32,000 bases of DNA from Promethearchaeota archaeon. Lineage in GTDB: Archaea > Asgardarchaeota > Hermodarchaeia > Hermodarchaeales > Hermodarchaeaceae. The translations under genes and the position numbers were made by a program. The notes beneath the pieces are model-generated. The model was not told the DNA's origin, searched no databases, and worked only from the letters and a program-made list of their open reading frames with translations. Positions within the stretch are counted from its first letter, which is position 1. Every line of letters begins with the position of its first letter. The stretch spans positions 1,714 to 33,713 of the forward strand of contig JBHLPH010000010.1 in NCBI GenBank assembly GCA_048939625.1. The letters run 5' to 3'. Positions 2-22,100 of this stretch are shown piece by piece.

Positions 2-892
2 CGTGCCGCCATTATCATCTCCTTTCTTGGTTGTTTATTTGGCGCGGTAGTGGGTATTGGCATATTACCATCTGTCCTTCTGTTTGTTATTGGATACACG
101 CTTCTTGGAACTTTGAATGTGGTGCGAAAGGGCTATCGGTGGTATAATGATTTTCCGAACTCATTTCGAGTGCTCTTAGCAGCGATTGGTGGATGGATTG
201 CCTGGTATAATCTTATTGTAGGCATAGTCTTGGTTATTCTTGGATTCGTTTTAAACGATGAATCACTTCGTCGCACGATTAGACAGTCCGGTGTCATTGT
301 GTTATCGGGTGTCGATGGTACTGGAAAAAGCACATGGACCACACGAATCTGCCACGAATTACGTAAAAAAGATTACAAATGTCACATCGAACGATTTTAC
401 AAATATCTCATCATTAGCCAAATTCGGAAACCTCCATCTACGGAGGGGCTGAGTAAGACACCGCCACGAAAACGGAGTCGGTTGTTCTTCCTACGCCCAT
501 ATCTGGCATTGGTGGATAATTTTTTGTTATATTTGACCCGTGTGTTTTTGCCAAATTGGCGAGGTGAATTTGTTGTCTGTGATCGTTTTATTTGGGACAA
601 CTATGTGAAGCACAAAGCGTTGGGTTATCGAATGCTACGCATTCTTGTTCTACTTGTGAAGCCGAAGCATGGCATTATTCTTGATGTCAGTCCTGCGGTA
701 TCCCGACAACGTACGGATCAACGTGATTTTCATTATGAGTATACCTTTGATGAGTTGAATCAAGAACGTCGAGTTTTCGCCGCCATTGGTCATCAACTGG
801 GTTATCCGGTTATCTCCACTGAACAATCCCAGTCTAAAACTTGGCAGGAAATTAAGACTGCGTTGATGAAAAGTGGAGTGCCACTTACTTAG
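2..892 (+). CDS. Membrane-anchored thymidylate-kinase-like P-loop kinase. The frame is open to the left window edge, so the 5' end may be truncated; the ORF track starts it at GTG 50.
   Basis: The N-terminal ~70 aa are hydrophobic helices (ILPSVLLFVIGYTLLG, LLAAIGGWIAWYNLIVGIVLVILGFVL). A Walker-A motif VLSGVDGTGKST follows, then a CDRFIWD (DR) motif and ILDVSPAVSRQR, which match dTMP-kinase family motifs. No in-frame stop lies between nt 2 and 50. Confidence 0.6.
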   Translation, partial: RAAIIISFLGCLFGAVVGIGILPSVLLFVIGYTLLGTLNVVRKGYRWYNDFPNSFRVLLAAIGGWIAWYNLIVGIVLVILGFVLNDESLRRTIRQSGVIVLSGVDGTGKSTWTTRICHELRKKDYKCHIERFYKYLIISQIRKPPSTEGLSKTPPRKRSRLFFLRPYLALVDNFLLYLTRVFLPNWRGEFVVCDRFIWDNYVKHKALGYRMLRILVLLVKPKHGIILDVSPAVSRQRTDQRDFHYEYTFDELNQERRVFAAIGHQLGYPVISTEQSQSKTWQEIKTALMKSGVPLT

Positions 893-1859
893 CAACCTCT
901 AGAGCATTGACCGTCTTGATTAATCCGTCGTGAAGTGAATGGCGGGGTTCAAATTGGAGGTGGGTTCTCATTCGGGTGACGTTGCCTACGCTATGGTAGA
1001 TGTCACCTGGGCGGGGCTCTTCAAAGACGAGTTCAGGGCTACAACTGGGTACGATCTGTTGTATCTCTTCGGCAAGTTCTAAGATGCTGACAGCTTTGCC
1101 ACAACCGATATTGATGGGTTCGGATGGTACATCGCTAAGAATGGCCGCACGAATGAAGGCTTCAACAGCATCTTCGACAAAGATGAAATCTCGGGTTTGG
1201 TGCCCATCATCAAAAATCACCAGGGGAAGACCCTGCCTGGCACGATGGATGAAAATGCTGACTACGCCTGCTTCGTTATCTTTAGCTTGTCGTGATCCAT
1301 AGATATTGAACAGACGTAATTGGGGGGCAACAAGACCTTTCTCTGCTGCTTTTACGCAGAGCCGCTCACCTTCCAATTTGCTTGCTCCATATGGTGAAAG
1401 TGGTTGGGTTGCAGCATCCTCTGGGATGGGCACGATTTCAGGCGTGCCATAAACTGCAGCGCTTGATGCAAACACGAACCGCTTCACTCCTGCTTTGATA
1501 GCCCCCGTGATTACATTCTGAGTTCCGGTAACATTGATGTCTGTATATTTCTGTGGATCACGCACCGATTCGGCTACCTTGGTCACGGCAGCTAAATGGA
1601 AGACAACGTCGCAGTCGTTGCAGGCTTGATCAATAGCTTTCGCATCACGAATATCGCTTTCAATCAGCGTGAACGCATCGTTGAATTCTGCATTTTCAAG
1701 GTTTTGTCGGGTGCCGGTGGTGAGGTTATCAAAACCGATGACGCGAACCTGGTTTCTGAGCAGCGCATCCACTAGGTGGCTGCCAACGAATCCTGCAGCT
1801 CCGGTGACTAATGCCGTTTGTAGGGCTAGTTTGGTCGTAGGATCCCCTCGACGCTTCAT
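885..1859 (-). CDS. NAD-dependent epimerase/dehydratase (extended SDR, UDP-sugar 4-epimerase-like)
   Basis: 324-aa ORF with the Rossmann motif VTGAAGFVGSHLV near the N-terminus and a catalytic YGASK (YxxxK). It converges on the upstream kinase-like gene with an 8-nt overlap. Confidence 0.85.
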   Translation of the reverse strand: MKRRGDPTTKLALQTALVTGAAGFVGSHLVDALLRNQVRVIGFDNLTTGTRQNLENAEFNDAFTLIESDIRDAKAIDQACNDCDVVFHLAAVTKVAESVRDPQKYTDINVTGTQNVITGAIKAGVKRFVFASSAAVYGTPEIVPIPEDAATQPLSPYGASKLEGERLCVKAAEKGLVAPQLRLFNIYGSRQAKDNEAGVVSIFIHRARQGLPLVIFDDGHQTRDFIFVEDAVEAFIRAAILSDVPSEPINIGCGKAVSILELAEEIQQIVPSCSPELVFEEPRPGDIYHSVGNVTRMRTHLQFEPRHSLHDGLIKTVNALEVAK

Positions 1860-1924
1860 CCACTCCTCTCTCTGGCTTTAACCGTTTGCCCTTGCCCGCC
1901 TCAGAGGATACAACAAGGAGCAAT

Positions 1925-1934
1925 CCTTAAAAGT
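1925..1934. promoter_or_regulatory. Putative TATA-like element (ccttaaaagt) in the divergent region between the epimerase and uS19
   Basis: This is the only A/T-rich box in the 126-nt divergent intergenic region, ~52 nt upstream of the uS19 ATG. Its reverse complement (acttttaagg) could serve the minus-strand gene. Confidence 0.3.
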
Positions 1935-1985
1935 AGGTGACTGTACCCAACAGCTGTACCCCACAACACCATTCGGGTCATCATC

Positions 1986-2390
1986 ATGGTCAAGAAATTC
2001 ACCTACCGCGGATTCGGATTAGAAGAACTCCAACGCATGCCTATGGACCAGTTCATCAACCTACTCCCCGCCCGCCAACGCCGCAGCCTCCGCCGCGGCC
2101 TCCCACCCCGTCAAAAGAAACTCCTCGAACGCCTCCGCAAAACCCGCCAAGCCATCGGCAAAGGCAAATCCCCCATGATCCGCACCCACAACCGCGACAT
2201 GATCATCCTCCCCGAAATGGTCGGCCTCACCCTCGGCATCCACAACGGCAAAGAATTCCTCCCCCTCGACATCAAAGTCGAACACATCGGCCACTACCTC
2301 GGCGAATACGCCCCCACCAACAAAGCCGTCCGCCACGGCAACCCCGGAATCGGCGCAACACGCGGAAGCCAATATGTACCTCTCAAGTAA
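1986..2390 (+). CDS. rps19: 30S ribosomal protein uS19
   Basis: The 134-aa translation ([18 protein letters not shown]...[17 protein letters not shown]...HNGKEF...[10 protein letters not shown]) is typical of archaeal/eukaryotic-type S19/S15. Third codon positions are almost exclusively C or A. Confidence 0.95.
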
Positions 2391-2426
2391 TATATAGATT
2401 AAGTAAAATCTATATAGATATGTTTT
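2391..2426 (+). terminator. Perfect 10-bp inverted repeat (tatatagatt / aatctatata, 6-nt loop) plus a TTTT run immediately after the uS19 stop. It may be a terminator hairpin or paired TATA-like boxes.
   Basis: Positions 2391-2400 pair base for base with 2407-2416 and the loop is aagtaa. A tttt run lies at 2423-2426. The stem is 9 A:T pairs and 1 G:C pair, so it is weak as RNA. Confidence 0.4.
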
Positions 2427-2478
2427 CAAGGAATTGTGGGGTTTAAGTACCTCCTTTTAATGCGCCTATTGATGTGCT

Positions 2479-4338
2479 ATGGGAAGACAACACCTACGTC
2501 ACTTCCACCTTACTGATTTCCACACACGCGACATATATGTTCAACTTGACCCAGATTTTGGCAAAAGCTTCTTTTCAAAAATACTTGATCAAATCTCCTT
2601 GAAAACTCTCGCTGAGGAACTCGACTCCAAAATCGACCTTTTAGCTCGATACGCTGTGAACTATCGTGAGGATTTAGTGAATCCCGTTTTCATCGAACTT
2701 GGCGTTTTATTGAAGCTTATTAGTACCCACAAGAAATTTCATAGGAATTCAGATATTCTTTCAGATGTGGAAAGAAATGTTCGCGCAATTAAAGGGTACG
2801 GAAGGTCAGGGCTGCTACGAAATCCACGAATACCAATTAAAGAAGATAACCATCTTGTTCGATTGGTGGTTCATCTAATAGGAGACGGCACCTTAACAGA
2901 GGAATATGGAACAACTAAGACTCCACACTACACAAATGGAAATGCAGTGTTACTTAATCAGTTTCATAGCACTTTGGGACAGGTATTTGGAGATGTTACT
3001 TGTTGTACTCGGAAATATATTGACAGACATGGAAAATCCCGTTCATATGTTGCTTTCACAAAATGGCTCGGTTATCTTCTCCGCCATTGGTATCCAGACG
3101 CAGGATTTGATGAACTACATGGTTCTCTTCCCAGTGCATTTCTACAACTTCCTTTAGAACTAAAGCGCGAAATTGTTCAGACGTTTGGGGATGATGATGG
3201 GCATGTGGGAGCACATTCTATTCGGTTTACGTCGGGGGGTTCAACGATTCTTGAGCAGATTCGTAGTTTAATTGTGGAGTTGATGGTGGCGACGTTACCT
3301 GTGGAGGAGTTTCAGGTTCTGTTGAAGTCCGTGGGTGAGGTGAAGGCGTGTCGGAGTTGGTTTATTTTGGACGTGTATCGACCGGTGTTTGGGTGGTATG
3401 TGGAGCATATTGGGTTCTCGCATCCGGAGCGGGCTGAGAGGTTGCGGTTTCAGTTAGCTTGTGATAGCGCGTGGGTGGAACGGGGGTTGGATGGGTTTGA
3501 TTTGGATTTTCTCACCTTGATTGGGTTGCGAGAGGTTGGGTCGGTGGCGGATGTAGCGCGGCGTTTTGTGTTGCGTGAGGATTTTCTGTTTCGGGTGGTT
3601 GAGCGGTTGCGGCAGTTGGGGTGGATTCGGCGGATGACAAAGCAGAAGTTTACAACGGTGTATCAGACGACATCAAAAGGCGAGGATTTCTTAAGGCGGA
3701 TTTGGGCTCGTGGGTGGTGTGAGCCAGATCGGGTCGTGATGGATGATGCGTGGTGGTCTGAGTTGCGGGGGCAGTTGTTGGATGAGTATGGCACCGCTGC
3801 AGCAGTGGCGCGGGTGGCGGGGATGCCGGAGACGACGGTGCGGCTGTATTTGCAGGGGCGGCGGCAGTGGATGGATGCGCGATGGGTAGTGGCGTTAGCG
3901 AAGGCGGTGGGGTGGGGGGTGGATGCGGTGTCGAAGGGACTTGTCGTGGGGTTTACACGGAAGTTGGCCCCGCGGTATGAGCAATGTGATTTCTTGAAAA
4001 AGCAATTGGAAGTGTATCGGCAGTTAAGCGATGGACGCCTTGGGTTTGAGGGTTGGCTGTTGAGTCATCGACGAGATGGAGGGCGATCGGAGCAGCTGTT
4101 AGATGTGGGACATTCGGTGAAGCTGCAAACGGCGTCGGCGATCAGAAATCGAATCGTTGAATTGGCTAGAGTGAATGGGGGAACGATTGCTTTGGAAGCG
4201 TTGAAGGGTGATGCCGTGTTGCAGGAGTTAGTTGCGAATCGGTATGCGGCGTATTTGGCGGATCGGATGGCGAAGCTGATTAAGCAGGGGGTGTTTGTGC
4301 GTGTGCAGAAGGGACGGTATCAGTTGGTTGAGTTCTGA
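2479..4338 (+). CDS. Free-standing double-motif LAGLIDADG homing-endonuclease-like protein fused to multiple HTH/winged-helix modules
   Basis: 619-aa ORF. Motif 1 is LVRLVVHLIGDGTL (aa 126-139, nt 2854-2895). Motif 2 is IVQTFGDDDGHV (aa 232-243, nt 3172-3207). They lie ~100 aa apart, as in monomeric LAGLIDADG enzymes, and the acidic residues are retained. The C-terminal 370 aa contain HTH-like segments (VADVARRFVLREDFLFRVVERLRQLGWIRR; AAAVARVAGMPETTVRLYLQGRR; RNRIVELARVNGGTIALEAL...LIKQGVFVRVQKGRYQL). A long ORF on a G/T-rich strand is unlikely by chance, because stop codons are frequent in that composition. Confidence 0.7.
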   Translation: MGRQHLRHFHLTDFHTRDIYVQLDPDFGKSFFSKILDQISLKTLAEELDSKIDLLARYAVNYREDLVNPVFIELGVLLKLISTHKKFHRNSDILSDVERNVRAIKGYGRSGLLRNPRIPIKEDNHLVRLVVHLIGDGTLTEEYGTTKTPHYTNGNAVLLNQFHSTLGQVFGDVTCCTRKYIDRHGKSRSYVAFTKWLGYLLRHWYPDAGFDELHGSLPSAFLQLPLELKREIVQTFGDDDGHVGAHSIRFTSGGSTILEQIRSLIVELMVATLPVEEFQVLLKSVGEVKACRSWFILDVYRPVFGWYVEHIGFSHPERAERLRFQLACDSAWVERGLDGFDLDFLTLIGLREVGSVADVARRFVLREDFLFRVVERLRQLGWIRRMTKQKFTTVYQTTSKGEDFLRRIWARGWCEPDRVVMDDAWWSELRGQLLDEYGTAAAVARVAGMPETTVRLYLQGRRQWMDARWVVALAKAVGWGVDAVSKGLVVGFTRKLAPRYEQCDFLKKQLEVYRQLSDGRLGFEGWLLSHRRDGGRSEQLLDVGHSVKLQTASAIRNRIVELARVNGGTIALEALKGDAVLQELVANRYAAYLADRMAKLIKQGVFVRVQKGRYQLVEF

Positions 4339-4379
4339 GTTCATGGGAGTGGTGTGGGGTGAATTGGTCGAAGTGGCTG

Positions 4380-6371
4380 TTATGCTTTGAAGGTTGGGGT
4401 AGGTGAGGTTTCGTTGAACAGGATTTCACCAAGGGGGGTGAAGTCGGTGAGGTTGTGGAAGCGGAGTGTGGAGGGGGAGAGGGTATAGAGGACTTCGTTG
4501 ATGTAAAGGGAACGGGTGATGAAGTGTGATTGCCATTTGTAAATGTCATCGTGGAGGACGTCGGGATCGGCGAGGTGGGTAATTTGATGTCGGATGGTAA
4601 GGGTGGCGGTTGCGGGGTTGAGGTAGAAGATGTAGGCGCCTTGCCAGACGTAGTCGCCATGTTCAAAGGGTTCGTGGGTGTAGTTGTCGGTGTATTCTGC
4701 GAGTAGAACGGGAATGATGAGGAGCTGTTGGTCGGGATGGTAGAGGACAGCGTGATGGTCGTTGAGGGCGGGGGAGTCAGTGCCTCGTACGCCAAGAATT
4801 AACTTTGCATTTTCTTTGGGGGTGTAGGGGTCGGTGGCATTGAATAGGCTGAGTTTGAGTCCCTCATACCACCACCAGTCTTCTGCTTCAGAAACCTGGA
4901 CCTCTTTTCCGATGCCTACTAACTGGTTGTCACCCAGTGGGTGGAGGTAATTCGAGTAACCGGGAATTATCAATTCTCCTTGAAGGTGGGGTGTAGTGGG
5001 ATCAGAAAGATCAATGATAAAGAGGGGATCGGTTTTCCAGAAGGTCACTAGATAACATACGCTTTCTAGGAATCGAACAGAGTAGATGCTTTCGCCAGGG
5101 GCTAAGCCTTCGAGAAGCCCAACGGTGTCGAGTTGTGCGTTTAGAATATAGAGATTGCTATCTTGTGTCCAGGAGGTTACAAATAACATTGGTGTCGACG
5201 TGAAGTTGGCGATTCGCCGTGTTGTAGCTACGCGTAGATAGCCCTCATGTTCATCGAGGGCGAATTGGTTAATTAGTAAGCCTGGAACTTTTCCACTGGC
5301 TTCATATAATACCTGACCTTCACAGATCGCAAAGCGATGTATGGCTGTTGAATGGTGAGATATGGCGTTAGTACTGAAGTCGAAATGCGATATAGCAAGG
5401 TAGAGATTGACAAGTGATGCGTAGATCGTACAGGTGCCCGTTCCGCCCAGGAAGGTTTCACTGGTGGGAGGATTATCCGGATTGCTGATATCTTGGGCTA
5501 GAATATGATAGTAGCAGAATCTGTAATCATACGTGTACAGATCATAATAGATGGTTTCAGCTGGGATGATGTGTGTGGAGTTTCCTATTGTTATTGATGG
5601 TAGCTCGACGGTTCCATTCTCCTCGCTTATCCAGTCTTGGACGATGAGGTATAGATATTTGCCAATTAGGCGGGCACTGACATAGTAATTCTCAAGGTCG
5701 ATTCGTTGAAGTAAGGTAATGGATGAAGGTTGAGATACATCATAAACTTGAAGTGAAATTGTGTCGGGGCTCCATGGGTCTCCGTGGTGCGTGACTCGGC
5801 TAATCACGGCTAGCCTGGATGTATCCCATAAGAATAACGCAAGCGGTGTTCCCTCAGGGTAAATCCAATTGACTATGTTCGCCATAGCCACAGGGTATGC
5901 TTTAACAACTGCAACCTTCTCTTCAGTAATGGTGTAAATGTAAGTTCCGTCGGTTTTGACAATGTCGGGCTCATCAACGCCTTCAACTTGAACATTGGTG
6001 GTCGAATACCCTGATGTCCCCTGCAATCCACTAGGAGTATCTCCGGACGTAAACAAGTTGATATCTTCCAGCCACAATCCCCATCCATAGCCTTGCGGTG
6101 GGTGATGATTTTGCACATACAATGCCAATTCCGCTTGTGATCGAAAACGCTGTAGTTGAACGGGGGAATTAAGTTGAAAATCCAAATAAAGGCCTGCTAT
6201 GGCGAACCCACCGATGATCGTTGATAATAAAAGCACGACTTTTACTGGTTGGCTTCGGACTTGTCTTAACCAATTACTCCCAAATCGGGTCCTTATGTGA
6301 GGCATATACTTACCTCTTACCCTCTGGGTCATTAATCTAAACTTTAGAACAGGAAAATCCATTGTGTTCAA
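4380..6371 (-). CDS. N-terminally membrane-anchored beta-propeller domain protein (COG4880 / Beta_propel-like)
   Basis: 663-aa ORF with one TM helix (VKVVLLLSTIIGGFAIAGLYL). The hallmark stretch YSTTNVQVEGVDEPDIVKTDGTYIYTI resembles the family of secreted archaeal/bacterial beta-propeller proteins as I remember it. The start codon is uncertain (Met at codons 1, 4, 14 and 23). Confidence 0.6.
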   Translation of the reverse strand: MNTMDFPVLKFRLMTQRVRGKYMPHIRTRFGSNWLRQVRSQPVKVVLLLSTIIGGFAIAGLYLDFQLNSPVQLQRFRSQAELALYVQNHHPPQGYGWGLWLEDINLFTSGDTPSGLQGTSGYSTTNVQVEGVDEPDIVKTDGTYIYTITEEKVAVVKAYPVAMANIVNWIYPEGTPLALFLWDTSRLAVISRVTHHGDPWSPDTISLQVYDVSQPSSITLLQRIDLENYYVSARLIGKYLYLIVQDWISEENGTVELPSITIGNSTHIIPAETIYYDLYTYDYRFCYYHILAQDISNPDNPPTSETFLGGTGTCTIYASLVNLYLAISHFDFSTNAISHHSTAIHRFAICEGQVLYEASGKVPGLLINQFALDEHEGYLRVATTRRIANFTSTPMLFVTSWTQDSNLYILNAQLDTVGLLEGLAPGESIYSVRFLESVCYLVTFWKTDPLFIIDLSDPTTPHLQGELIIPGYSNYLHPLGDNQLVGIGKEVQVSEAEDWWWYEGLKLSLFNATDPYTPKENAKLILGVRGTDSPALNDHHAVLYHPDQQLLIIPVLLAEYTDNYTHEPFEHGDYVWQGAYIFYLNPATATLTIRHQITHLADPDVLHDDIYKWQSHFITRSLYINEVLYTLSPSTLRFHNLTDFTPLGEILFNETSPTPTFKA

Positions 6372-6439: not shown

Positions 6440-6478
6440 GCAGTTAGCGTAGACAGGTTGCGTGTTGAGGTGTTTATT

Positions 6479-6976
6479 GTGAAGCCGTGGTTGTTGAATA
6501 TTTTGGCGTGTCCGATTTGTAAGGAGCATCCGTTGACGACGTATGTGGTGGGTGTGAAGCGGAATCGGCTTCGGGACAAGAAGGGATTAGCCGGAGAACT
6601 GGTCATCCATTATCAGCGCGGAGTGCTGAGTGAACCGTCTTTGAAGCCGGTCTATAATTTGTCAAAGGACAAAGTCTTTGATCAGCGGCTGGCAAAGGCG
6701 CGGAAGGTGTTTGCCTCCTTTTCGAAGAAAAAGCCTGATTCCCAGGATGTGGTACCTCTCGTGGAGTACTTCCATGGCATCGAAATTGTAACGGGAGCGA
6801 TGCGGTGTGAGAAGTGTGAAAGATGGTACCCGATTGGGTCCCGCGTGGAGACGATTCCGGAGCTGTTGCCGGATGCGGGGCGAGATAGGAAGGCGGATGT
6901 GGCGTTTCTCCAGAAGCATCGTGAAGTGCTTCCGAAAGTGATTTTAACCGAGTCTAAGCCCTTCGTCTTGGAATAG
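6479..6976 (+). CDS. Trm112-like zinc-ribbon protein, long form with a central insertion and a C-terminal extension
   Basis: The N-terminal half-knuckle is MKPWLLNILACPICKE. The C-terminal half is EIVTGAMRCEKCERWYPIGSRVETIPELLPD (CPxC ... CxxC, and the (h)PI..GIP.hL motif of Trm112/DUF343). About 95 aa separate the two halves. GTG 6479 is preceded by GAGGTG at 6467-6472; the ORF track begins at TTG 6458. Confidence 0.6.
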   Translation: MKPWLLNILACPICKEHPLTTYVVGVKRNRLRDKKGLAGELVIHYQRGVLSEPSLKPVYNLSKDKVFDQRLAKARKVFASFSKKKPDSQDVVPLVEYFHGIEIVTGAMRCEKCERWYPIGSRVETIPELLPDAGRDRKADVAFLQKHREVLPKVILTESKPFVLE

Positions 6977-7608: not shown

Positions 7609-8787
7609 ATGCCAGCTGAAGATCATTTTATCAATCGTGGATTGCTCAAAGTCAAAGTAAATGACTTTTTACGCCAGGAACTTCGCCGTGCCGGCTATGC
7701 TGGCGTAGATCTCCAAAAGACTCCACTGGGGATGCGCGTTGTTGTCTATGCATCACGCCCAGGAATGGTCATTGGCCGTCGTGGAACCACAGTCCGTGAA
7801 CTAACGGAAACCTTAGAGCACGAATTTGGCTTAGAAGCTCCACAGATTGAAGTTAGCGAAGTGGAAGTCCCCGAACTCAACGGACCCATCATGGCTGAAC
7901 GATTAGCCCAGCGACTTGAACGCGGTGACCATTTCCGTCGTGCTGCCTATGGGGTGCTTCGCCGCATCATCAGTGCTGGAGCGAAAGGCGTGGAAATCTC
8001 CCTTTCTGGGAAACTGACCAGCCGCCGTGCACGATATCAAAAATTCCGAAGTGGATTCGTAGCCAAAACTGGTGAACCAATCCGCACTGCTGTGAGTCAC
8101 GGTTGGGCTTTTGCGATTATGAAACCTGGTGTCTTGGGGGTACAAGTTCGAATTATGCTCCCCGACGCCGTAGCACCGGATCACCCTGTCATTGTAGAGC
8201 GAGAGGTAGTAGTTGAAGCTGTTCCAACGCCTACTCCAACAACCACAGAACCCTCTGAAACCCCTGAAGCTGCGGATATTGAAATTATTGAAGAAGAGCT
8301 ACCTATCGAGGAAGCTTCATCAATAGAAGAGTTTGTTGACGAAAGCACTGAACCAGTCCCCGAACCAACTCCTGCACCTACTCCAGAATCAGTTCCGAAA
8401 GAAGTTCCTTCCGAAGAGGAAAAACCTGCTCCTGAAGAACCGAAGGCGAAGCCCAAGGCCAAATCCAAAGAGGAACCTGAAAAAGCCCCAGAGAAACCGA
8501 AGGCGAAGCCCAAGGCAAAGAAGAAAGAAGTAGAAAAAGCGAAGCCGAAGGCGAAGAAGGAAAAAGCCGAGACGAAGCCTAAGGCGAAACCGAAGGCGAA
8601 GAAAAAGGCTGAACCCAAAGAAAAGGCAAAGAAAGAGAAAAAAGCCGAATCTAAGGCAGCCAAGAAAGAAGAAAAACCAAAAGCGAAAGCCATGACCAGC
8701 AAAGCTGCTGAGAAGGAAAAGAAGTCGAAATCCAAGGAAACCAAAGCAAAGGCTTCAAAATCCAAGAAGGAGTCTTCGAAGAAGTGA
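7609..8787 (+). CDS. rps3: 30S ribosomal protein uS3 with a ~190-aa C-terminal acidic-then-lysine-rich low-complexity extension
   Basis: The KH-domain core is aa 1-195 (GMRVVVYASRPGMVIGRRGTTVRELTE...). From about nt 8206 the tail runs PTPTPTTTEPSE...EEELPIEE..., then KPKAKPKAK repeats. GGAGGAG lies upstream of the ATG. Confidence 0.95.
   Translation: MPAEDHFINRGLLKVKVNDFLRQELRRAGYAGVDLQKTPLGMRVVVYASRPGMVIGRRGTTVRELTETLEHEFGLEAPQIEVSEVEVPELNGPIMAERLAQRLERGDHFRRAAYGVLRRIISAGAKGVEISLSGKLTSRRARYQKFRSGFVAKTGEPIRTAVSHGWAFAIMKPGVLGVQVRIMLPDAVAPDHPVIVEREVVVEAVPTPTPTTTEPSETPEAADIEIIEEELPIEEASSIEEFVDESTEPVPEPTPAPTPESVPKEVPSEEEKPAPEEPKAKPKAKSKEEPEKAPEKPKAKPKAKKKEVEKAKPKAKKEKAETKPKAKPKAKKKAEPKEKAKKEKKAESKAAKKEEKPKAKAMTSKAAEKEKKSKSKETKAKASKSKKESSKK
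8438..8516 (+). repeat. Perfect 22-nt direct repeat (aaccgaaggcgaagcccaaggc) at 8438-8459 and 8495-8516, with a 57-nt period, inside the uS3 tail
   Basis: Read directly from the sequence. It encodes the recurring EPKAKPKAK / KPKAKPKAK unit, and a degenerate third copy lies near 8569-8607. Confidence 0.9.
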
Positions 8788-17083: not shown

Positions 17084-18619
17084 ATGAGTCGATTTCTCAA
17101 CGCGCTGCGTCCATTGATTCGTATCATGCCTGAGGTCAAGGCACCTGACCGGAAGGTTTCCTTCCGGGAAAAAGTAATCTGGACAGCTGTAATCCTCGTT
17201 CTCTATCTGATCATGGCTAGCCTGCCACTTTATGGAATTAGTCTACAACTAGGATTTGACTACTTTTTCTGGCTCCGGACTATCCTTGCCTCTTCACGTG
17301 GAACCCTCATGGAACTCGGTATCGGTCCCATTGTGACTGCCGGGCTCATCATGCAGCTCCTCGTGGGCTCCCAGCTCATCCGCGTCGACATGTCCGATCC
17401 TTATCAGCGTTCGCTCTACACAGGCGCCCAGAAAGTCCTCGCCGTCTTAATGACCGCATTCCAAGCTTTCGCCTACATTTTCGCAGGCGCCTATGGGCAA
17501 GTTCCTTCGCAATTAAGGTACGATCAGGCTGTTCTCGTCTTTATCCAACTTATGTTCGCTGGCATCGTCGTTATCATGATGGATGAAGCTATCCAGAAAG
17601 GCTGGGGACTTGGGAGTGGTGTTAGCCTCTTCATCATGGCCAACGTTTGTACCCAAATCCTCTGGGGAATGTTTTCAATAGCACCTGCACAAAATTTGGA
17701 TCTTCCCAGTGCTCCGCTTGGATTTACGGGCATCATCCCATATTGGATTCAGAACTTGGGTGGCTGGTCTGTCAATGATTGGAATCTGGGGGTCGTCTTC
17801 AATCCAGATACTAATCCTGCTGGTTTCATCGCTGACCCTGTTACTATCTGGTTCAGACCGCAAAATCCCCGCTCTAGCATGCTCGGTCTCTTTACTACAT
17901 TCATCACCTTCGTCCTCGTCATCTACATGGAATCCTACCGTGTGAATATTCCGCTTCAATACGCCCGCTATCGTGGATTCCGTGGGCAGTATCCCATCAA
18001 ACTCCTTTACGTCTCCAATATCCCCGTTATCTTTACTCAAGCCCTGTATGCCAACATCCTCTTCATCACCCAAATCCTATGGGTTCAACTCCCGTGGCTC
18101 CAAACCTCCTTTTGGTTTAACCTCATCGCTAGCTATACGGCAGCCCCTGGTGGAGGAAACTACTTGGTTCCCGATCCATACTGTTTCGTTTGGTTCCTCA
18201 CACCCCCCATTGGCATCCTTTCCCTCCTTGACACTGGTGGATGGATCCGTGCCATCGGTTATGCCCTCCTCCTCATCGTCTTCTGTGCAGGTTTCGCCCG
18301 ACTTTGGATTGATGTCTCCGGCATCTCACCACGAGATGTCTCTCGCCAACTCATCGGCGCTGGCATGCAAGTACCTGGCTTCCGCCGTTCACCCCAAGTC
18401 ATCGAAAAAATCCTCAATCGCTACATTCCTACGGTAGCCCTCCTCGGTGGCATCATTGTAGGTGGACTCGCCGCGTTCGCCGACTTTCTCGGCGCTCTCA
18501 CCACTGGTATCGGAATACTTCTTGCTGTAGGCATTATGCGGCAATACTTCGAGTTGCTTGCGAAGGAGCAATTGGGTGAGATGCATCCAATGATGCGTGG
18601 TCTCCTTGGCGTTGGATAA
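17084..18619 (+). CDS. secY: Protein translocase subunit SecY
   Basis: 511 aa and polytopic. The N-terminus has the SecY signature (PEVKAPDRKVSFREKVIWTAVILVLYLIMASLPLYG, ...SSRGTLMELGIGPIVTAGLIMQLL). It sits at the conserved position after uL15. Confidence 0.95.
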   Translation: MSRFLNALRPLIRIMPEVKAPDRKVSFREKVIWTAVILVLYLIMASLPLYGISLQLGFDYFFWLRTILASSRGTLMELGIGPIVTAGLIMQLLVGSQLIRVDMSDPYQRSLYTGAQKVLAVLMTAFQAFAYIFAGAYGQVPSQLRYDQAVLVFIQLMFAGIVVIMMDEAIQKGWGLGSGVSLFIMANVCTQILWGMFSIAPAQNLDLPSAPLGFTGIIPYWIQNLGGWSVNDWNLGVVFNPDTNPAGFIADPVTIWFRPQNPRSSMLGLFTTFITFVLVIYMESYRVNIPLQYARYRGFRGQYPIKLLYVSNIPVIFTQALYANILFITQILWVQLPWLQTSFWFNLIASYTAAPGGGNYLVPDPYCFVWFLTPPIGILSLLDTGGWIRAIGYALLLIVFCAGFARLWIDVSGISPRDVSRQLIGAGMQVPGFRRSPQVIEKILNRYIPTVALLGGIIVGGLAAFADFLGALTTGIGILLAVGIMRQYFELLAKEQLGEMHPMMRGLLGVG

Positions 18620-21984: not shown

Positions 21985-22100
21985 TGGCGCCGCGGACGAG
22001 ATTCGAACTCGTGCGACCCGAGAGTCACAGGCTATATGAGCATCGCCAAATTAGTGACGAGATTCCAGGCCTGCGCCGTAAACCACTTGGCTACCGCGGC
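21985..22100 (-). tRNA. tRNA-Ser (anticodon GGA), class II with a long variable arm, an encoded CCA and a 29-nt anticodon-loop intron
   Basis: The minus-strand read is GCCGCGG-TA-GCCA-AGTGGTTTA-CGGC-G-CAGGC-CTGGAA[29 nt]A-GCCTG-TGACTCTCGGGTCGC-ACGAG-TTCGAAT-CTCGT-CCGCGGC-G-CCA. It has a 7-bp acceptor stem, a canonical T arm, discriminator G73, a 15-nt variable arm (GACT/GGTC stem), and the anticodon at 22064-22066. The mature length is 87 nt. Confidence 0.85.
22034..22062 (-). other. Intron of tRNA-Ser(GGA), with boundaries assuming the canonical 37/38 position
   Basis: 36 nt lie between the anticodon-stem strands where 7 are expected. Excising TCTCGTCACTAATTTGGCGATGCTCATAT leaves the loop CUGGAAA. 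The exact boundaries are not confirmed because I could not fold a strict BHB. Confidence 0.5.

What the first reader, a model, noticed from the sequence alone, without database searches (positions are those of the whole stretch)
2479..4338. LAGLIDADG endonuclease-like core fused to an N-terminal HTH and a ~370-aa array of winged-helix/HTH modules
The two LAGLIDADG-type motifs (HLIGDGT at aa 132-138 and FGDDDGH at aa 236-242) are spaced ~100 aa apart and keep their acidic residues, so nuclease activity is plausible. The protein is not inside an intein or an intron. It is about three times the size of a minimal LAGLIDADG enzyme because of the extra predicted DNA-binding modules. The gene is also compositionally chimeric: the first ~700 nt are ~38-40% GC, and from about nt 3185, right at motif 2, it becomes ~55% GC and strongly G/T-rich. 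That suggests a fusion of segments with different histories. It could be a novel free-standing homing endonuclease with an extended recognition apparatus, or a domesticated LAGLIDADG-derived regulator or maturase.
Basis: partly seen in the sequence, partly recalled or inferred. Interest (0 to 1): 0.65.

Follow-up and report, generated by a model that had tools for sequence, protein, structure and literature searches.

The report
LAGLIDADG protein with extra DNA-binding domains
A 619-residue Asgard-archaeal protein has a homing-endonuclease (LAGLIDADG) core plus four added DNA-binding modules, is inherited vertically beside ribosomal protein genes, and its gene switches half-way through to an extreme G-rich strand composition that is conserved across species and remains unexplained.

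Summary
ORF 2479-4338(+) is real, and its two motifs (HLIGDGT, FGDDDGH) are invariant in 22 orthologues. The LAGLIDADG call is now supported by three results:
- A profile of the wider family hits PI-PfuI, PI-PkoII and the TliVMA intein endonuclease (E 2.6e-13 to 8e-10).
- 42 of 62 relatives hit Pfam LAGLIDADG_3.
- An AF2 model (pLDDT 93) returns only LAGLIDADG proteins in its top 50 PDB matches.

The extra parts are a fast-evolving N-terminal HTH, a MarR/TrmB-type winged helix (wH), a Cro/C1-type HTH and a C-terminal wH. The C-terminal array is about 280 aa, not 370.

The protein is the long form of a large uncharacterised family of free-standing HTH-LAGLIDADG-wH proteins (477 clusters). Nearly all relatives checked keep both catalytic acids.

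In Hermod/Thorarchaeota it lies between convergent S19 and YdjM genes at the head of the ribosomal protein cluster and co-diverges with them. One relative (L021) has the same locus without it.

The "fusion of different histories" reading is not supported. The composition switch recurs at the same codons in seven orthologous loci. It also covers the spacer and the end of an unrelated convergent gene. It is therefore a locally maintained, strand-specific bias whose cause is unknown; an R-loop-prone zone is my leading guess.

The parts
1986..2390 (+). Ribosomal protein S19 gene. It uses almost only NNC/NNA codons (C3 0.67, A3 0.22, G3 0.07, T3 0.03), the mirror image of the downstream domain.
   Evidence: The orthologue in L020 is called PF00203. 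The same bias appears in S19 of L001, L003, L007, L010 and L020, but not in the X-less locus L021.
2391..2416 (.). Perfect 10-nt inverted repeat TATATAGATT-N6-AATCTATATA just after the S19 stop. It could be a terminator hairpin or an operator.
   Evidence: Read from the sequence and found. Conserved only in the closest relative, L005.
2442..2449 (+). TATA-like element TTTAAGTA about 30 nt upstream of the ATG. It suggests the protein has its own promoter and a leaderless or short-leader mRNA.
   Evidence: Alignment of six S19-X spacers. A TTTA(A/T)-rich box lies at the same place in 5 of 6. This is an inference, not a mapped start site.
2479..4338 (+). Gene X, the 619-aa HTH-LAGLIDADG-wH-HTH-wH protein.
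   Evidence: 27 close homologues, 51-72% identity, full length.
2479..2775 (+). N-terminal helical/HTH domain (aa 1-99). It evolves fast (28% mean pairwise identity).
   Evidence: AF2 models. Cro/YdaS/HTH_3-type hits in the N-termini of relatives. Identity by region.
2776..3483 (+). Double LAGLIDADG core (aa 100-335), two alpha-beta-beta-alpha-beta-beta-alpha halves.
   Evidence: Model m0374b1806075, pLDDT 93.4, pTM 0.91. The top 50 Foldseek PDB hits are all LAGLIDADG proteins. Family profile against PDB sequences: E 2.6e-13 to PI-PfuI.
2872..2892 (+). LAGLIDADG motif 1, HLIGDGT (aa 132-138). D136 is the predicted metal-binding acid.
   Evidence: Invariant in A1 and in the 62-sequence wide-family alignment. 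Aligns with the ADG/SEG motif of TliVMA and PI-PkoII.
3184..3204 (+). LAGLIDADG motif 2, FGDDDGH (aa 236-242). D240 is the predicted metal-binding acid. The DNA here (GGGGATGATGATGGGCATGTGGG, 3187-3209) is also the G-cluster at the onset of the G-rich domain.
   Evidence: (aligns with FDAEGHV of PI-PfuI).
3493..3708 (+). Winged helix 1 (aa ~339-410), MarR/TrmB/ArsR type.
   Evidence: AF2 secondary structure H-H-H-E-E. TrmB hits in 11 of 22 orthologues, plus MarR_2 and IclR. Weak BilQ (NCBIfam) and weak HTH_27 (Pfam) hits. MarR/ArsR structures among the fold hits.
3745..3948 (+). Cro/C1-type HTH (aa ~423-490).
   Evidence: Pfam HTH_31 in 20 of 22 orthologues, best E 4.3e-5. Five-helix bundle in the model.
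4129..4329 (+). C-terminal winged helix 2 (aa ~551-617), AbiEi_4-like.
   Evidence: AF2 secondary structure. AbiEi_4 hits in 5 of 22 orthologues and in P0029.
3151..4860 (+). Strand-asymmetric composition domain: the + strand is G/T-rich (GC skew about +0.5, C at 3-5% of third positions). The left edge is sharp and the right edge fades.
4380..6371 (-). Convergent Beta_propel (PF09826) gene. Only its last ~160 codons (4380-4860) carry the skew. In relatives a ~185-aa YdjM-like membrane protein gene occupies this place.
6458..6976 (+). Trm112-like gene upstream of L22. It is also G3-rich (0.49 versus C3 0.14) in this clade.

Best explanation
Gene X encodes a free-standing, monomeric, two-motif LAGLIDADG protein. 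It has an N-terminal HTH and three C-terminal DNA-binding modules (wH, Cro-type HTH, wH). It is the long form of a large, unnamed family of free-standing HTH-LAGLIDADG-wH proteins, known so far only from metagenome contigs and MAGs.

Shown: the fold, the domain layout, invariance of both metal-binding acids, and residence between convergent S19 and YdjM-like genes at the head of the ribosomal protein cluster in Hermod/Thorarchaeota. X divergence tracks the divergence of the neighbouring ribosomal genes.

Inferred:
- It is still a Mg2+-dependent, highly sequence-specific DNA endonuclease or nickase. The LAGLIDADG saddle would cut and the four HTH/wH modules would extend or anchor recognition.
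- It now persists as a vertically inherited chromosomal gene rather than by frequent homing.

The compositional 'chimerism' is not historical. The + strand from the motif-2 codons to about 520 nt past the stop is kept G/T-rich by a local, strand-specific process that ignores reading frame and coding strand. My preferred mechanism, which is inference only, is this: sense transcription through the G-cluster at 3187-3209 and the ≥40% G tract behind it forms R-loops; these expose the + strand as single-stranded DNA; deamination of C and A on that strand then reinforces the bias.
For: Fold and homology:
- Family profile against PDB sequences: PI-PfuI 2.6e-13, PI-PkoII 5.2e-10, TliVMA endonuclease 7.8e-10, I-DmoI 1.9e-3.
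- 42 of 62 relatives hit Pfam LAGLIDADG_3, best E 2.7e-16.
- AF2 model pLDDT 93.4, pTM 0.91, with alpha-beta-beta-alpha-beta-beta-alpha twice.
- The Foldseek top 50 are all LAGLIDADG proteins, with target-normalised TM-score (TMt) 0.59-0.69 to I-Tsp061I, I-DmoI and WhiA.

Catalytic acids:
- D136 and D238-D240 are invariant in 22 orthologues.
- D136, G137, D238 and D239 are 4 of only 8 invariant columns in a family alignment with 20% mean identity, and E240 is present in ≥90%.
- [G/A/C]DG ... DD[E/D]x was found in 79 of 121 family representatives ≥300 aa by a regular-expression scan, and in seven of the eight misses I inspected.

Extra modules.

Family size and free-standing contexts: 477 clusters; loci L012-L017.

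Synteny epimerase(-)/S19/X/YdjM(-)/Trm112/L22/S3... in L001, L003, L004, L005, L007, L020. X identity groups the same clades as L22/S3/Trm112.

Skew is in situ and strand-level:
- Seven loci share it.
- The spacer has G20/C3.
- The end of the Beta_propel domain is skewed although it is genuine domain sequence.
- X_C amino-acid usage is dragged toward G-rich codons compared with the unskewed homologue.
- No skew occurs around distant homologues.

R-loop criteria (QmRLFS-type rules recalled from memory and re-implemented by me): the only predicted site in 32 kb on either strand is + 3187-4985, and every orthologous locus tested has a site in the same domain.
Against: - X itself gives no direct Pfam, NCBIfam or PDB-sequence hit to LAGLIDADG. 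Membership rests on transitive profiles and a predicted structure.
- No activity data exist. Retained acids could serve structure or metal binding without cleavage.
- Synteny is not universal. One contig has non-ribosomal genes downstream and one relative lacks X, so mobility or loss does occur.
- For the R-loop idea: no transcript or R-loop data; no conserved G-quadruplex motifs; the first 700 nt of the same transcript are unskewed; the mirror-image bias of S19 is not explained by sense transcription; most genes in this genome already prefer C3 over G3, so S19 may be an unrelated extreme of codon bias.
Confidence: 0.6

Rival explanations
1. X is a selfish free-standing homing endonuclease gene. 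It cuts the insert-free S19/YdjM junction of related genomes and is copied in by repair. Its conservation reflects ongoing homing rather than host function.
For: Catalytic acids are intact throughout. X sits in a spacer between conserved genes, a typical niche for free-standing homing endonuclease genes (my knowledge of phage seg/mob genes). An insert-free allele with identical flanks exists (L021), and by host genes it is no more distant than X-bearing clades. Gene content immediately downstream of X varies among close relatives: Beta_propel, YdjM or orf221. A distant long homologue lies next to a second LAGLIDADG ORF.
Against: All 22 full-length orthologues are intact and 51-72% identical, with no degenerate copies. 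X clades match host-gene clades, so there is no sign of recent horizontal spread. The locus is the same in three deep clades. The four extra DNA-binding modules are conserved at 64-67% identity, which is unusual baggage for a selfish nuclease.
Confidence: 0.2
2. X is a catalytically silent, WhiA-like transcription or chromatin factor. It would use the LAGLIDADG saddle only as a DNA-binding scaffold, possibly regulating S19 and the ribosomal protein cluster.
For: It has a LAGLIDADG core plus appended HTH modules, as in WhiA. WhiA is among the best structural matches (8dy7_I, TMt 0.69), and 2 of 62 relatives weakly hit LAGLIDADG_WhiA. It is stable, vertically inherited and lies next to the ribosomal protein operon. 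It has four HTH/wH modules typical of regulators.
Against: WhiA lost the catalytic acids (established knowledge; review PMC3384342 listed, not read here). X and nearly all checked members of its family keep them, and they account for half of the invariant columns. No WhiA-specific Pfam domain is found in X.
Confidence: 0.2
3. The compositional break marks a fusion of two genes of different origin.
For: The break falls between the two LAGLIDADG halves, and GC jumps from 40% to 55%.
Against: The two halves form one fold and are homologous as a unit to single-chain enzymes. The same architecture exists without any skew in a 36%-identical homologue. The bias is kept in seven lineages whose synonymous sites I infer to be saturated (57-73% protein identity). 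It extends beyond the gene into unrelated sequence on the other coding strand.
Confidence: 0.03
4. The mirrored skew marks a replication-initiation zone: C/A-rich S19 on the left, an AT-rich centre, and a G/T-rich right arm. Each outward lagging-strand template would be exposed as single-stranded DNA.
For: The polarity is origin-like. The cumulative GC-skew minimum falls at -134 to +521 nt from the X start in six loci. The central 790 bp are the most AT-rich of the region. X carries wH modules, a domain type also found in initiator proteins (my own knowledge).
Against: No ORB-like repeats or conserved repeated motifs were found. There is no orc1/cdc6 gene nearby among the genes annotated in the rp-cluster loci and identified in the window. 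The centre is coding sequence. No replichore-scale skew is visible across the 32-kb window. S19 may simply be the extreme of a genome-wide C3 preference.
Confidence: 0.07
5. The bias is codon-level selection: NNC/NNA 'fast' codons in S19 and YdjM, and NNG/NNT 'slow' codons in X_C and Trm112 to throttle expression or aid folding.
For: X_C uses almost only NNG/NNT codons and S19 almost only NNC/NNA. Most genes in the window prefer C3 over G3. Where a + strand ORF follows X (L011), the skew stops at the X stop codon.
Against: The non-coding spacer is equally skewed. The bias begins in mid-gene in X and in the Beta_propel gene. A low-abundance membrane protein would then be more codon-optimised than L22 or S3.
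Confidence: 0.1

Closest known systems
Archaeal intein-encoded LAGLIDADG endonucleases (PI-PfuI 1dq3, PI-PkoII 2cw7, TliVMA 7qss)
   Same: These are the closest by sequence profile and by fold. They are single-chain, two-motif enzymes, with the acidic residue at the end of each LAGLIDADG helix aligned to D136 and D240.
   Different: X has no Hint/splicing domain and is not inserted in a host protein. It carries an N-terminal HTH and three C-terminal wH/HTH modules instead of the intein DNA-recognition region.
Archaeal intron-encoded monomeric LAGLIDADG enzymes (I-DmoI, I-Tsp061I)
   Same: The same roughly 200-residue pseudo-dimeric core (TMt 0.59-0.69, rmsd about 4 A over about 200 columns).
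   Different: Those enzymes are 180-200 aa and sit in rRNA introns. X is three times larger and free-standing, next to ribosomal protein genes.
WhiA (Gram-positive bacteria)
   Same: A LAGLIDADG scaffold with an appended HTH, chromosomal and vertically inherited. It is a structural match (8dy7_I/8dy9_I).
   Different: WhiA has lost the catalytic acids and acts as a transcription factor (my knowledge). X keeps them. The taxon and HTH types differ, and X has no WhiA Pfam domains.
HO endonuclease of yeast (recalled from memory, not tested)
   Same: A host-retained LAGLIDADG nuclease whose specificity is extended by an extra DNA-binding domain and which cuts a chromosomal site for a host process.
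   Different: HO is intein-derived with zinc fingers, and no homology was tested here.
G-skewed R-loop-prone regions (immunoglobulin switch regions, CpG-island promoters) and the strand asymmetry of vertebrate mtDNA (recalled from memory)
   Same: A kilobase-scale, one-strand G(+T) richness with G-clusters at the upstream edge. It meets QmRLFS-type criteria.
   Different: Here the region lies inside and beyond a protein-coding gene of an archaeon. It is conserved in position across species, and no R-loop has been measured.

Membership tests
LAGLIDADG endonuclease superfamily (single-chain, two-motif) | Two LAGLIDADG helices about 100 aa apart, each ending in a conserved acidic residue followed by Gly | tested here: met
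   HLIGDG(T) aa 132-138 and FGDDDG(H) aa 236-242. They are invariant in 22 orthologues. D136, G137, D238 and D239 are invariant, and E/D240 is present in ≥90% of 62 distant relatives. Regular-expression survey of 121 representatives.
LAGLIDADG endonuclease superfamily (single-chain, two-motif) | Alpha-beta-beta-alpha-beta-beta-alpha fold repeated twice, forming a beta-saddle | tested here: met
   AF2 model, pLDDT 93.4, pTM 0.91, with the expected order of elements in both halves. The top 50 Foldseek PDB hits are all LAGLIDADG proteins. This is a predicted structure, not a solved one.
LAGLIDADG endonuclease superfamily (single-chain, two-motif) | Significant sequence-profile match to curated family models | tested here: inconclusive
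   X alone gives no LAGLIDADG hit in Pfam or NCBIfam and none against PDB sequences. Only 1 of 22 orthologues hits, at E 0.045. Transitively the result is strong: 42 of 62 relatives hit PF14528, and the family profile hits PI-PfuI at 2.6e-13.
LAGLIDADG endonuclease superfamily (single-chain, two-motif) | Mg2+-dependent cleavage of a long (14-40 bp) DNA site | not testable with these tools
   Needs biochemistry.
Homing endonuclease gene (mobile) | Embedded in an intron or intein, or free-standing with presence/absence polymorphism and a phylogeny incongruent with the host | tested here: inconclusive
   X is not in an intron or intein. One insert-free allele exists (L021). However, X clades match host-gene clades and no degenerate copies were seen.
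WhiA-type LAGLIDADG-derived regulators | Loss of the catalytic acidic residues, and WhiA-specific N-terminal and HTH_WhiA domains | tested here: not met
   The acids are retained. X gives no WhiA Pfam hits, and only 2 of 62 relatives weakly hit LAGLIDADG_WhiA.
Intein | Hint/splicing blocks flanking the endonuclease domain, in frame within a host protein | tested here: not met
   No Hint or Intein_splicing hit in X or its orthologues. The N- and C-terminal regions are HTH/wH domains. PDB matches are confined to the endonuclease domains.
Archaeal replication origin | ORB/mini-ORB repeats around an AT-rich unwinding element, usually next to orc1/cdc6 | tested here: not met
   The ORB consensus search was at chance level and gave no hit in the locus. 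No conserved repeated motifs were found. No orc1/cdc6 gene was seen among the genes annotated in the rp-cluster loci or identified in the window.

The most novel reading that the evidence does not exclude
The X locus could be a self-maintaining single-stranded-DNA/R-loop zone coupled to a site-specific LAGLIDADG nuclease. Transcription through the G-cluster, which is encoded by the enzyme's own active-site motif, would open a ~1.7-kb R-loop. Together with cleavage or nicking by X, this would serve as a programmed recombination or replication-initiation hotspot at the head of the ribosomal protein cluster. That would make it an archaeal analogue of switch-region or HO-type programmed DNA breaks. 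It would also explain three observations: the conserved skew, the variable gene content just downstream, and the frequent assembly breaks at the boundary.
Probability: 0.06. Interest if true: 0.85.

Novelty: new variant of a known kind. Interest (0 to 1): 0.55.

Why it matters
The protein itself extends a known theme, a LAGLIDADG scaffold that gains extra DNA-binding domains and is kept by the host. It extends it to Asgard archaea and to a large family (477 clusters at 50% identity) that no source names beyond "hypothetical protein" or "helix-turn-helix domain-containing protein".

Such proteins are natural long-site DNA binders or cutters. They may interest genome engineers, and an insert-free allele now provides a concrete candidate target.

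The more surprising part is the composition. A kilobase-scale, sharply bounded, strand-specific nucleotide bias is conserved at the same codon across species and ignores gene boundaries. I know of no described equivalent in archaea. If it reflects R-loops or local single-stranded DNA exposure, it would be a readily testable natural case of transcription- or replication-linked mutational asymmetry shaping both codon and amino-acid usage of a gene.

Tried and rejected
- Direct Pfam, NCBIfam and PDB-sequence searches with X alone gave no LAGLIDADG hit. A 22-orthologue profile against PDB sequences also failed. Only the wider-family profile worked.
- The first AF2 model, built on 22 sequences, left the second-half beta strands at pLDDT below 50. 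A 62-sequence alignment resolved this.
- Canonical G-quadruplex motifs are not conserved and are absent from the window.
- The ORB consensus search was at chance level.
- A within-locus repeat and motif search found nothing conserved across loci. The recurring S19 'ATGATCATCC' / X 'GGATGATGAT' complementarity is explained by conserved codons.
- An internal promoter at the boundary is unlikely. The TTTAGAA box in the window is not conserved in orthologues.
- Rfam and tRNA scans found nothing in the locus.
- RNA folding energies: C/A-rich RNAs are simply unstructured and the G/U-rich X_C is ordinary, so this does not discriminate between hypotheses.
- Sequencing artefact is rejected. The pattern recurs in independent assemblies from several sources and studies, with intact conserved ORFs.
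- Literature searches for this family or for local skew in Asgard archaea found nothing relevant.
- Cluster look-ups returned no informative names for relatives: only 'hypothetical protein' or none.
Full report
**What is there**

ORF 2479-4338(+) encodes 619 aa and is the only long ORF in that interval. It lies downstream of ribosomal protein S19 (1986-2390). Beyond it are a convergent Beta_propel gene (4380-6371, minus strand; PF09826 over aa 122-643), a Trm112-like gene, and then L22, S3, L29 and the rest of an archaeal ribosomal protein cluster.

The compositional switch is also real. GC is about 40% with no skew up to about nt 3150. After that GC is 50-60% and GC skew is about +0.5.

**Is it a LAGLIDADG protein?**

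On its own the protein matches no LAGLIDADG model. Pfam gives only a weak HTH_31 hit at aa 439-479, NCBIfam gives a weak MarR-like hit, and PDB sequences give nothing.

A word-indexed search found 27 close homologues, 51-72% identical and about 615 aa long. All are unnamed or 'hypothetical', and they come from Thor/Hermodarchaeota-type metagenomes. In their alignment G135-D136-G137 and G237-D-D-D-G-H242 are invariant.

An exhaustive profile search of 1.8 billion cluster representatives found 477 relatives. Most are 370-390 aa and match positions 5-325 (sometimes up to about 400) of X. That region is the N-terminal HTH, the core and one winged helix (wH).

An alignment of 62 of these relatives (20% mean identity) gave three results:
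- Only eight columns are invariant, and four of them are D136, G137, D238 and D239. Position 240 is Glu in at least 90%.
- 42 of 62 members hit Pfam LAGLIDADG_3, best E 2.7e-16.
- The family profile hits the endonuclease domains of PI-PfuI (2.6e-13), PI-PkoII (5.2e-10), the TliVMA intein (7.8e-10) and I-DmoI (1.9e-3). The motif ends align with one another: FDAEGHV of PI-PfuI pairs with the family consensus FFDDEGSV, which is FGDDDGHV in X.

An AF2 model of aa 1-374 built on that alignment has pLDDT 93.4 and pTM 0.91. It shows alpha-beta-beta-alpha-beta-beta-alpha twice. Its 50 best PDB matches are all LAGLIDADG proteins: PI-PkoII, the Tli and Pho VMA inteins, I-WcaI, WhiA, I-Tsp061I, PI-SceI, I-SceI and I-DmoI. 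The target-normalised TM-score (TMt) is 0.59-0.69 to the small enzymes.

**The added modules**

The full-length model (pLDDT 80.8) and Pfam scans of all orthologues give this layout:
- aa 1-99: a helical HTH domain. Relatives hit Cro/YdaS/HTH_3 models there.
- aa 100-335: the LAGLIDADG core.
- aa ~339-410: a MarR/TrmB/ArsR-type wH (11 of 22 orthologues hit TrmB).
- aa ~423-490: a Cro/C1-type HTH (20 of 22 hit HTH_31).
- aa ~551-617: a C-terminal wH (AbiEi_4-like).

The C-terminal array is therefore about 280 aa with three modules, not about 370 aa. The N-terminal domain evolves fast (28% mean pairwise identity). Every other part is 60-73% identical.

**Genomic setting and inheritance**

In L001, L003, L004, L005, L007 and L020 the order, where the contig extends far enough, is epimerase(-), S19(+), X(+), a ~185-aa YdjM-like membrane protein gene(-), Trm112-like(+), L22, S3 and onward. 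The named records are Hermodarchaeota, Thorarchaeota or 'Promethearchaeota' MAGs.

Some loci differ downstream of X:
- In the window the YdjM slot holds a Beta_propel gene.
- In L011 it holds a + strand ORF.
- On one contig X is followed by non-ribosomal genes.

X appears to have its own TATA-like element about 30 nt upstream of the ATG.

X identities group the same three clades as L22, S3 and Trm112. This argues for vertical descent since before those clades split.

Two outgroup loci are informative:
- L021 has exactly S19(+), a 104-nt spacer, YdjM(-), Trm112, L22, with no X. By host genes it is no further from the window clade than the X-bearing L001 and L007 are. X was therefore lost there, or gained more than once.
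- L022, a more distant Asgard, has the canonical S19-L22 adjacency.

The wider family occurs as free-standing genes in unrelated chromosomal contexts. A 36%-identical long homologue lies next to a second, canonical LAGLIDADG ORF.

**Nuclease or regulator?**

This cannot be settled computationally.

For activity: the two metal-binding acids are among the very few invariant residues of a deeply divergent family. The one well-studied LAGLIDADG-derived regulator, WhiA, lost them (my knowledge; the review PMC3384342 was listed but not read).

For host retention rather than selfish homing: all copies are intact, X co-diverges with its neighbours, and the four accessory modules are conserved.

My best reading is a vertically inherited protein that is probably still catalytic and has an extended recognition apparatus. 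I put the pure homing-element reading and the pure regulator reading at about 0.2 each.

**The compositional 'chimerism'**

Third-position composition:

| Segment | A | C | G | T |
|---|---|---|---|---|
| X aa 1-235 | .31 | .20 | .12 | .37 |
| X aa 236-619 | .12 | .05 | .57 | .26 |
| S19 | .22 | .67 | .07 | .03 |

Other segments in the domain share the bias:
- The 41-nt spacer after the stop has G20 and C3.
- The last 160 codons of the convergent Beta_propel gene have C3 .63 and G3 .03 in their own sense, so the + strand is G-rich there. The rest of that gene is ordinary (C3 .29, G3 .16). Pfam shows those 160 codons are genuine domain sequence.

The same pattern recurs in seven orthologous loci:
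- S19 has C3 .54-.71 and T3 .01-.03.
- X_C has G3 .53-.71 and C3 .03-.05.
- The downstream 450 nt have GC skew +.46 to +.59.
- The pattern is weaker in the GC-rich L004.

The pooled change-point is at aa 225. In the window the onset falls within one 60-nt step at about 3180.

Apart from one weaker stretch in SecY, these are the only such domains in the loci sampled around the ribosomal cluster. They are absent around distant homologues. They are also absent from the X-less locus L021, where S19 has C3 .47 and G3 .38, although that genome is about 60% GC, which confounds the comparison. The pressure is strong enough to shift amino-acid usage of X_C toward G-rich codons compared with the unskewed homologue: K 3.9 versus 8.4%, N 0.8 versus 3.6%, G 8.9 versus 5.3%.

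These lineages are far enough apart that synonymous sites should be saturated. A bias that is still present in all of them, at the same codon, and that ignores coding strand and gene boundaries must be actively maintained at the DNA or transcript level. It cannot be inherited from a fusion.

**What maintains it is unknown**

*R-loops or single-stranded DNA exposure (about 0.3).* A + strand depleted of C and A and enriched in G and T is what deamination of a strand often exposed as single-stranded DNA would give. This is an analogy with the mtDNA heavy strand, from my own knowledge. I re-implemented QmRLFS-type rules from memory: a G-cluster initiation zone followed by at least 100 nt with at least 40% G. 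Under those rules the only predicted R-loop-forming sequence in the 32-kb window, on either strand, is + 3187-4985. Its initiation zone is GGGGATGATGATGGGCATGTGGG, the codons of G-D-D-D-G-H-V-G. Every orthologous locus tested has a predicted site in the same domain, and the two control loci tested (L012, L017) have none. This partly restates the G-richness and proves nothing about real R-loops.

*Origin-like bubble (about 0.07).* The polarity fits, with the cumulative skew minimum near the X start. There are no ORB repeats and no orc1/cdc6 gene nearby.

*Codon-level selection (about 0.1).* This fits the NNK and NNM codon pattern, the genome-wide C3 preference and the loss of skew after the X stop in L011. 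It does not fit the skewed spacer or the mid-gene boundaries.

S19 may be a separate phenomenon, an extreme of the general C3 bias.

**A side observation on assembly breaks**

An unusual number of metagenome contigs begin, end or are gapped within X nt ~530-830: L009 (N-gap and duplication), L010, L011, L023, the P0026 contig, and the fragments P0030, P0032 and P0042. About 90 nt there are nearly identical between species. Assembly-graph tangling among co-occurring relatives is therefore a sufficient explanation. Coverage bias or real structural heterogeneity is not excluded.

**Verdict**

- Observation: confirmed.
- Interpretation: partly supported. The LAGLIDADG core with appended HTH/wH modules, free-standing, is right. 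The 'different histories' fusion is wrong.
- Classification: a new variant of a known kind, namely a host-resident LAGLIDADG protein with extra DNA-binding domains and the long form of a large unnamed family of free-standing genes seen so far only in metagenomes.
- Interest: 0.55. The protein class is familiar, but the conserved strand-asymmetry domain anchored at its active-site codons, together with the insert-free allele, makes concrete experiments possible.

Noticed in passing
L021:1116-2185 (compare window 1986-4860): This is an insert-free allele: S19(+), a 104-nt C-rich spacer, YdjM(-), Trm112, L22, in a relative about as close as the X-bearing clades. It gives the natural 'empty site' for a cleavage test. 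L022 shows the canonical S19-L22 adjacency.
   Followed up: partly
window 7609-8787 (+): Ribosomal protein S3 carries a ~170-aa Lys/Pro/Glu/Ala-rich C-terminal tail and is 392 aa long. The S3 homologue is 303-388 aa in the relatives with a complete S3 gene call and only 214 aa in the more distant L022.
   Followed up: no
window 885-2390: S19 is detached from the usual L3-L4-L23-L2 genes. Its upstream neighbour is a divergently transcribed NAD-dependent epimerase, and the same is true in L001, L003, L020 and L023.
   Followed up: partly
window 6458-6976 and the equivalent in L001-L021: A Trm112-like zinc-ribbon gene is inserted just upstream of L22 in this lineage. In the window, L005, L011 and L020 it is also G3-rich (0.39-0.51).
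   Followed up: partly
window 21988-22100 (-): The Rfam tRNA hit spans 113 nt for a 71-position model, which suggests an intron-containing tRNA. ARAGORN reported no tRNA in the window.
   Followed up: no
L017:2626-4201: Directly downstream of the 36%-identical long homologue lies a second ORF with canonical LAGLIDADG motifs (LGVCDGDGS and GAFDSDGS). It is split by an N in the assembly.
   Followed up: no
X nt ~530-830 in L009, L010, L011, L023 and the P0026 contig: Many independent metagenome contigs start, stop or carry an N-gap at the compositional boundary. The likely cause is graph tangling on a ~90-nt stretch that is nearly identical between species, but coverage bias or structural variation is not excluded.
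   Followed up: partly
window 17801-18300 (+), SecY: This is the only other stretch of the window with |GC skew| above 0.33 (-0.36; C3 up to 0.51). More generally, most genes here have C3 above G3 in the coding sense.
   Followed up: partly
window 50-892 (+): A 280-aa ORF has N-terminal hydrophobic segments fused to a P-loop, thymidylate-kinase-like domain (PF02223, E 7.8e-8).
   Followed up: no
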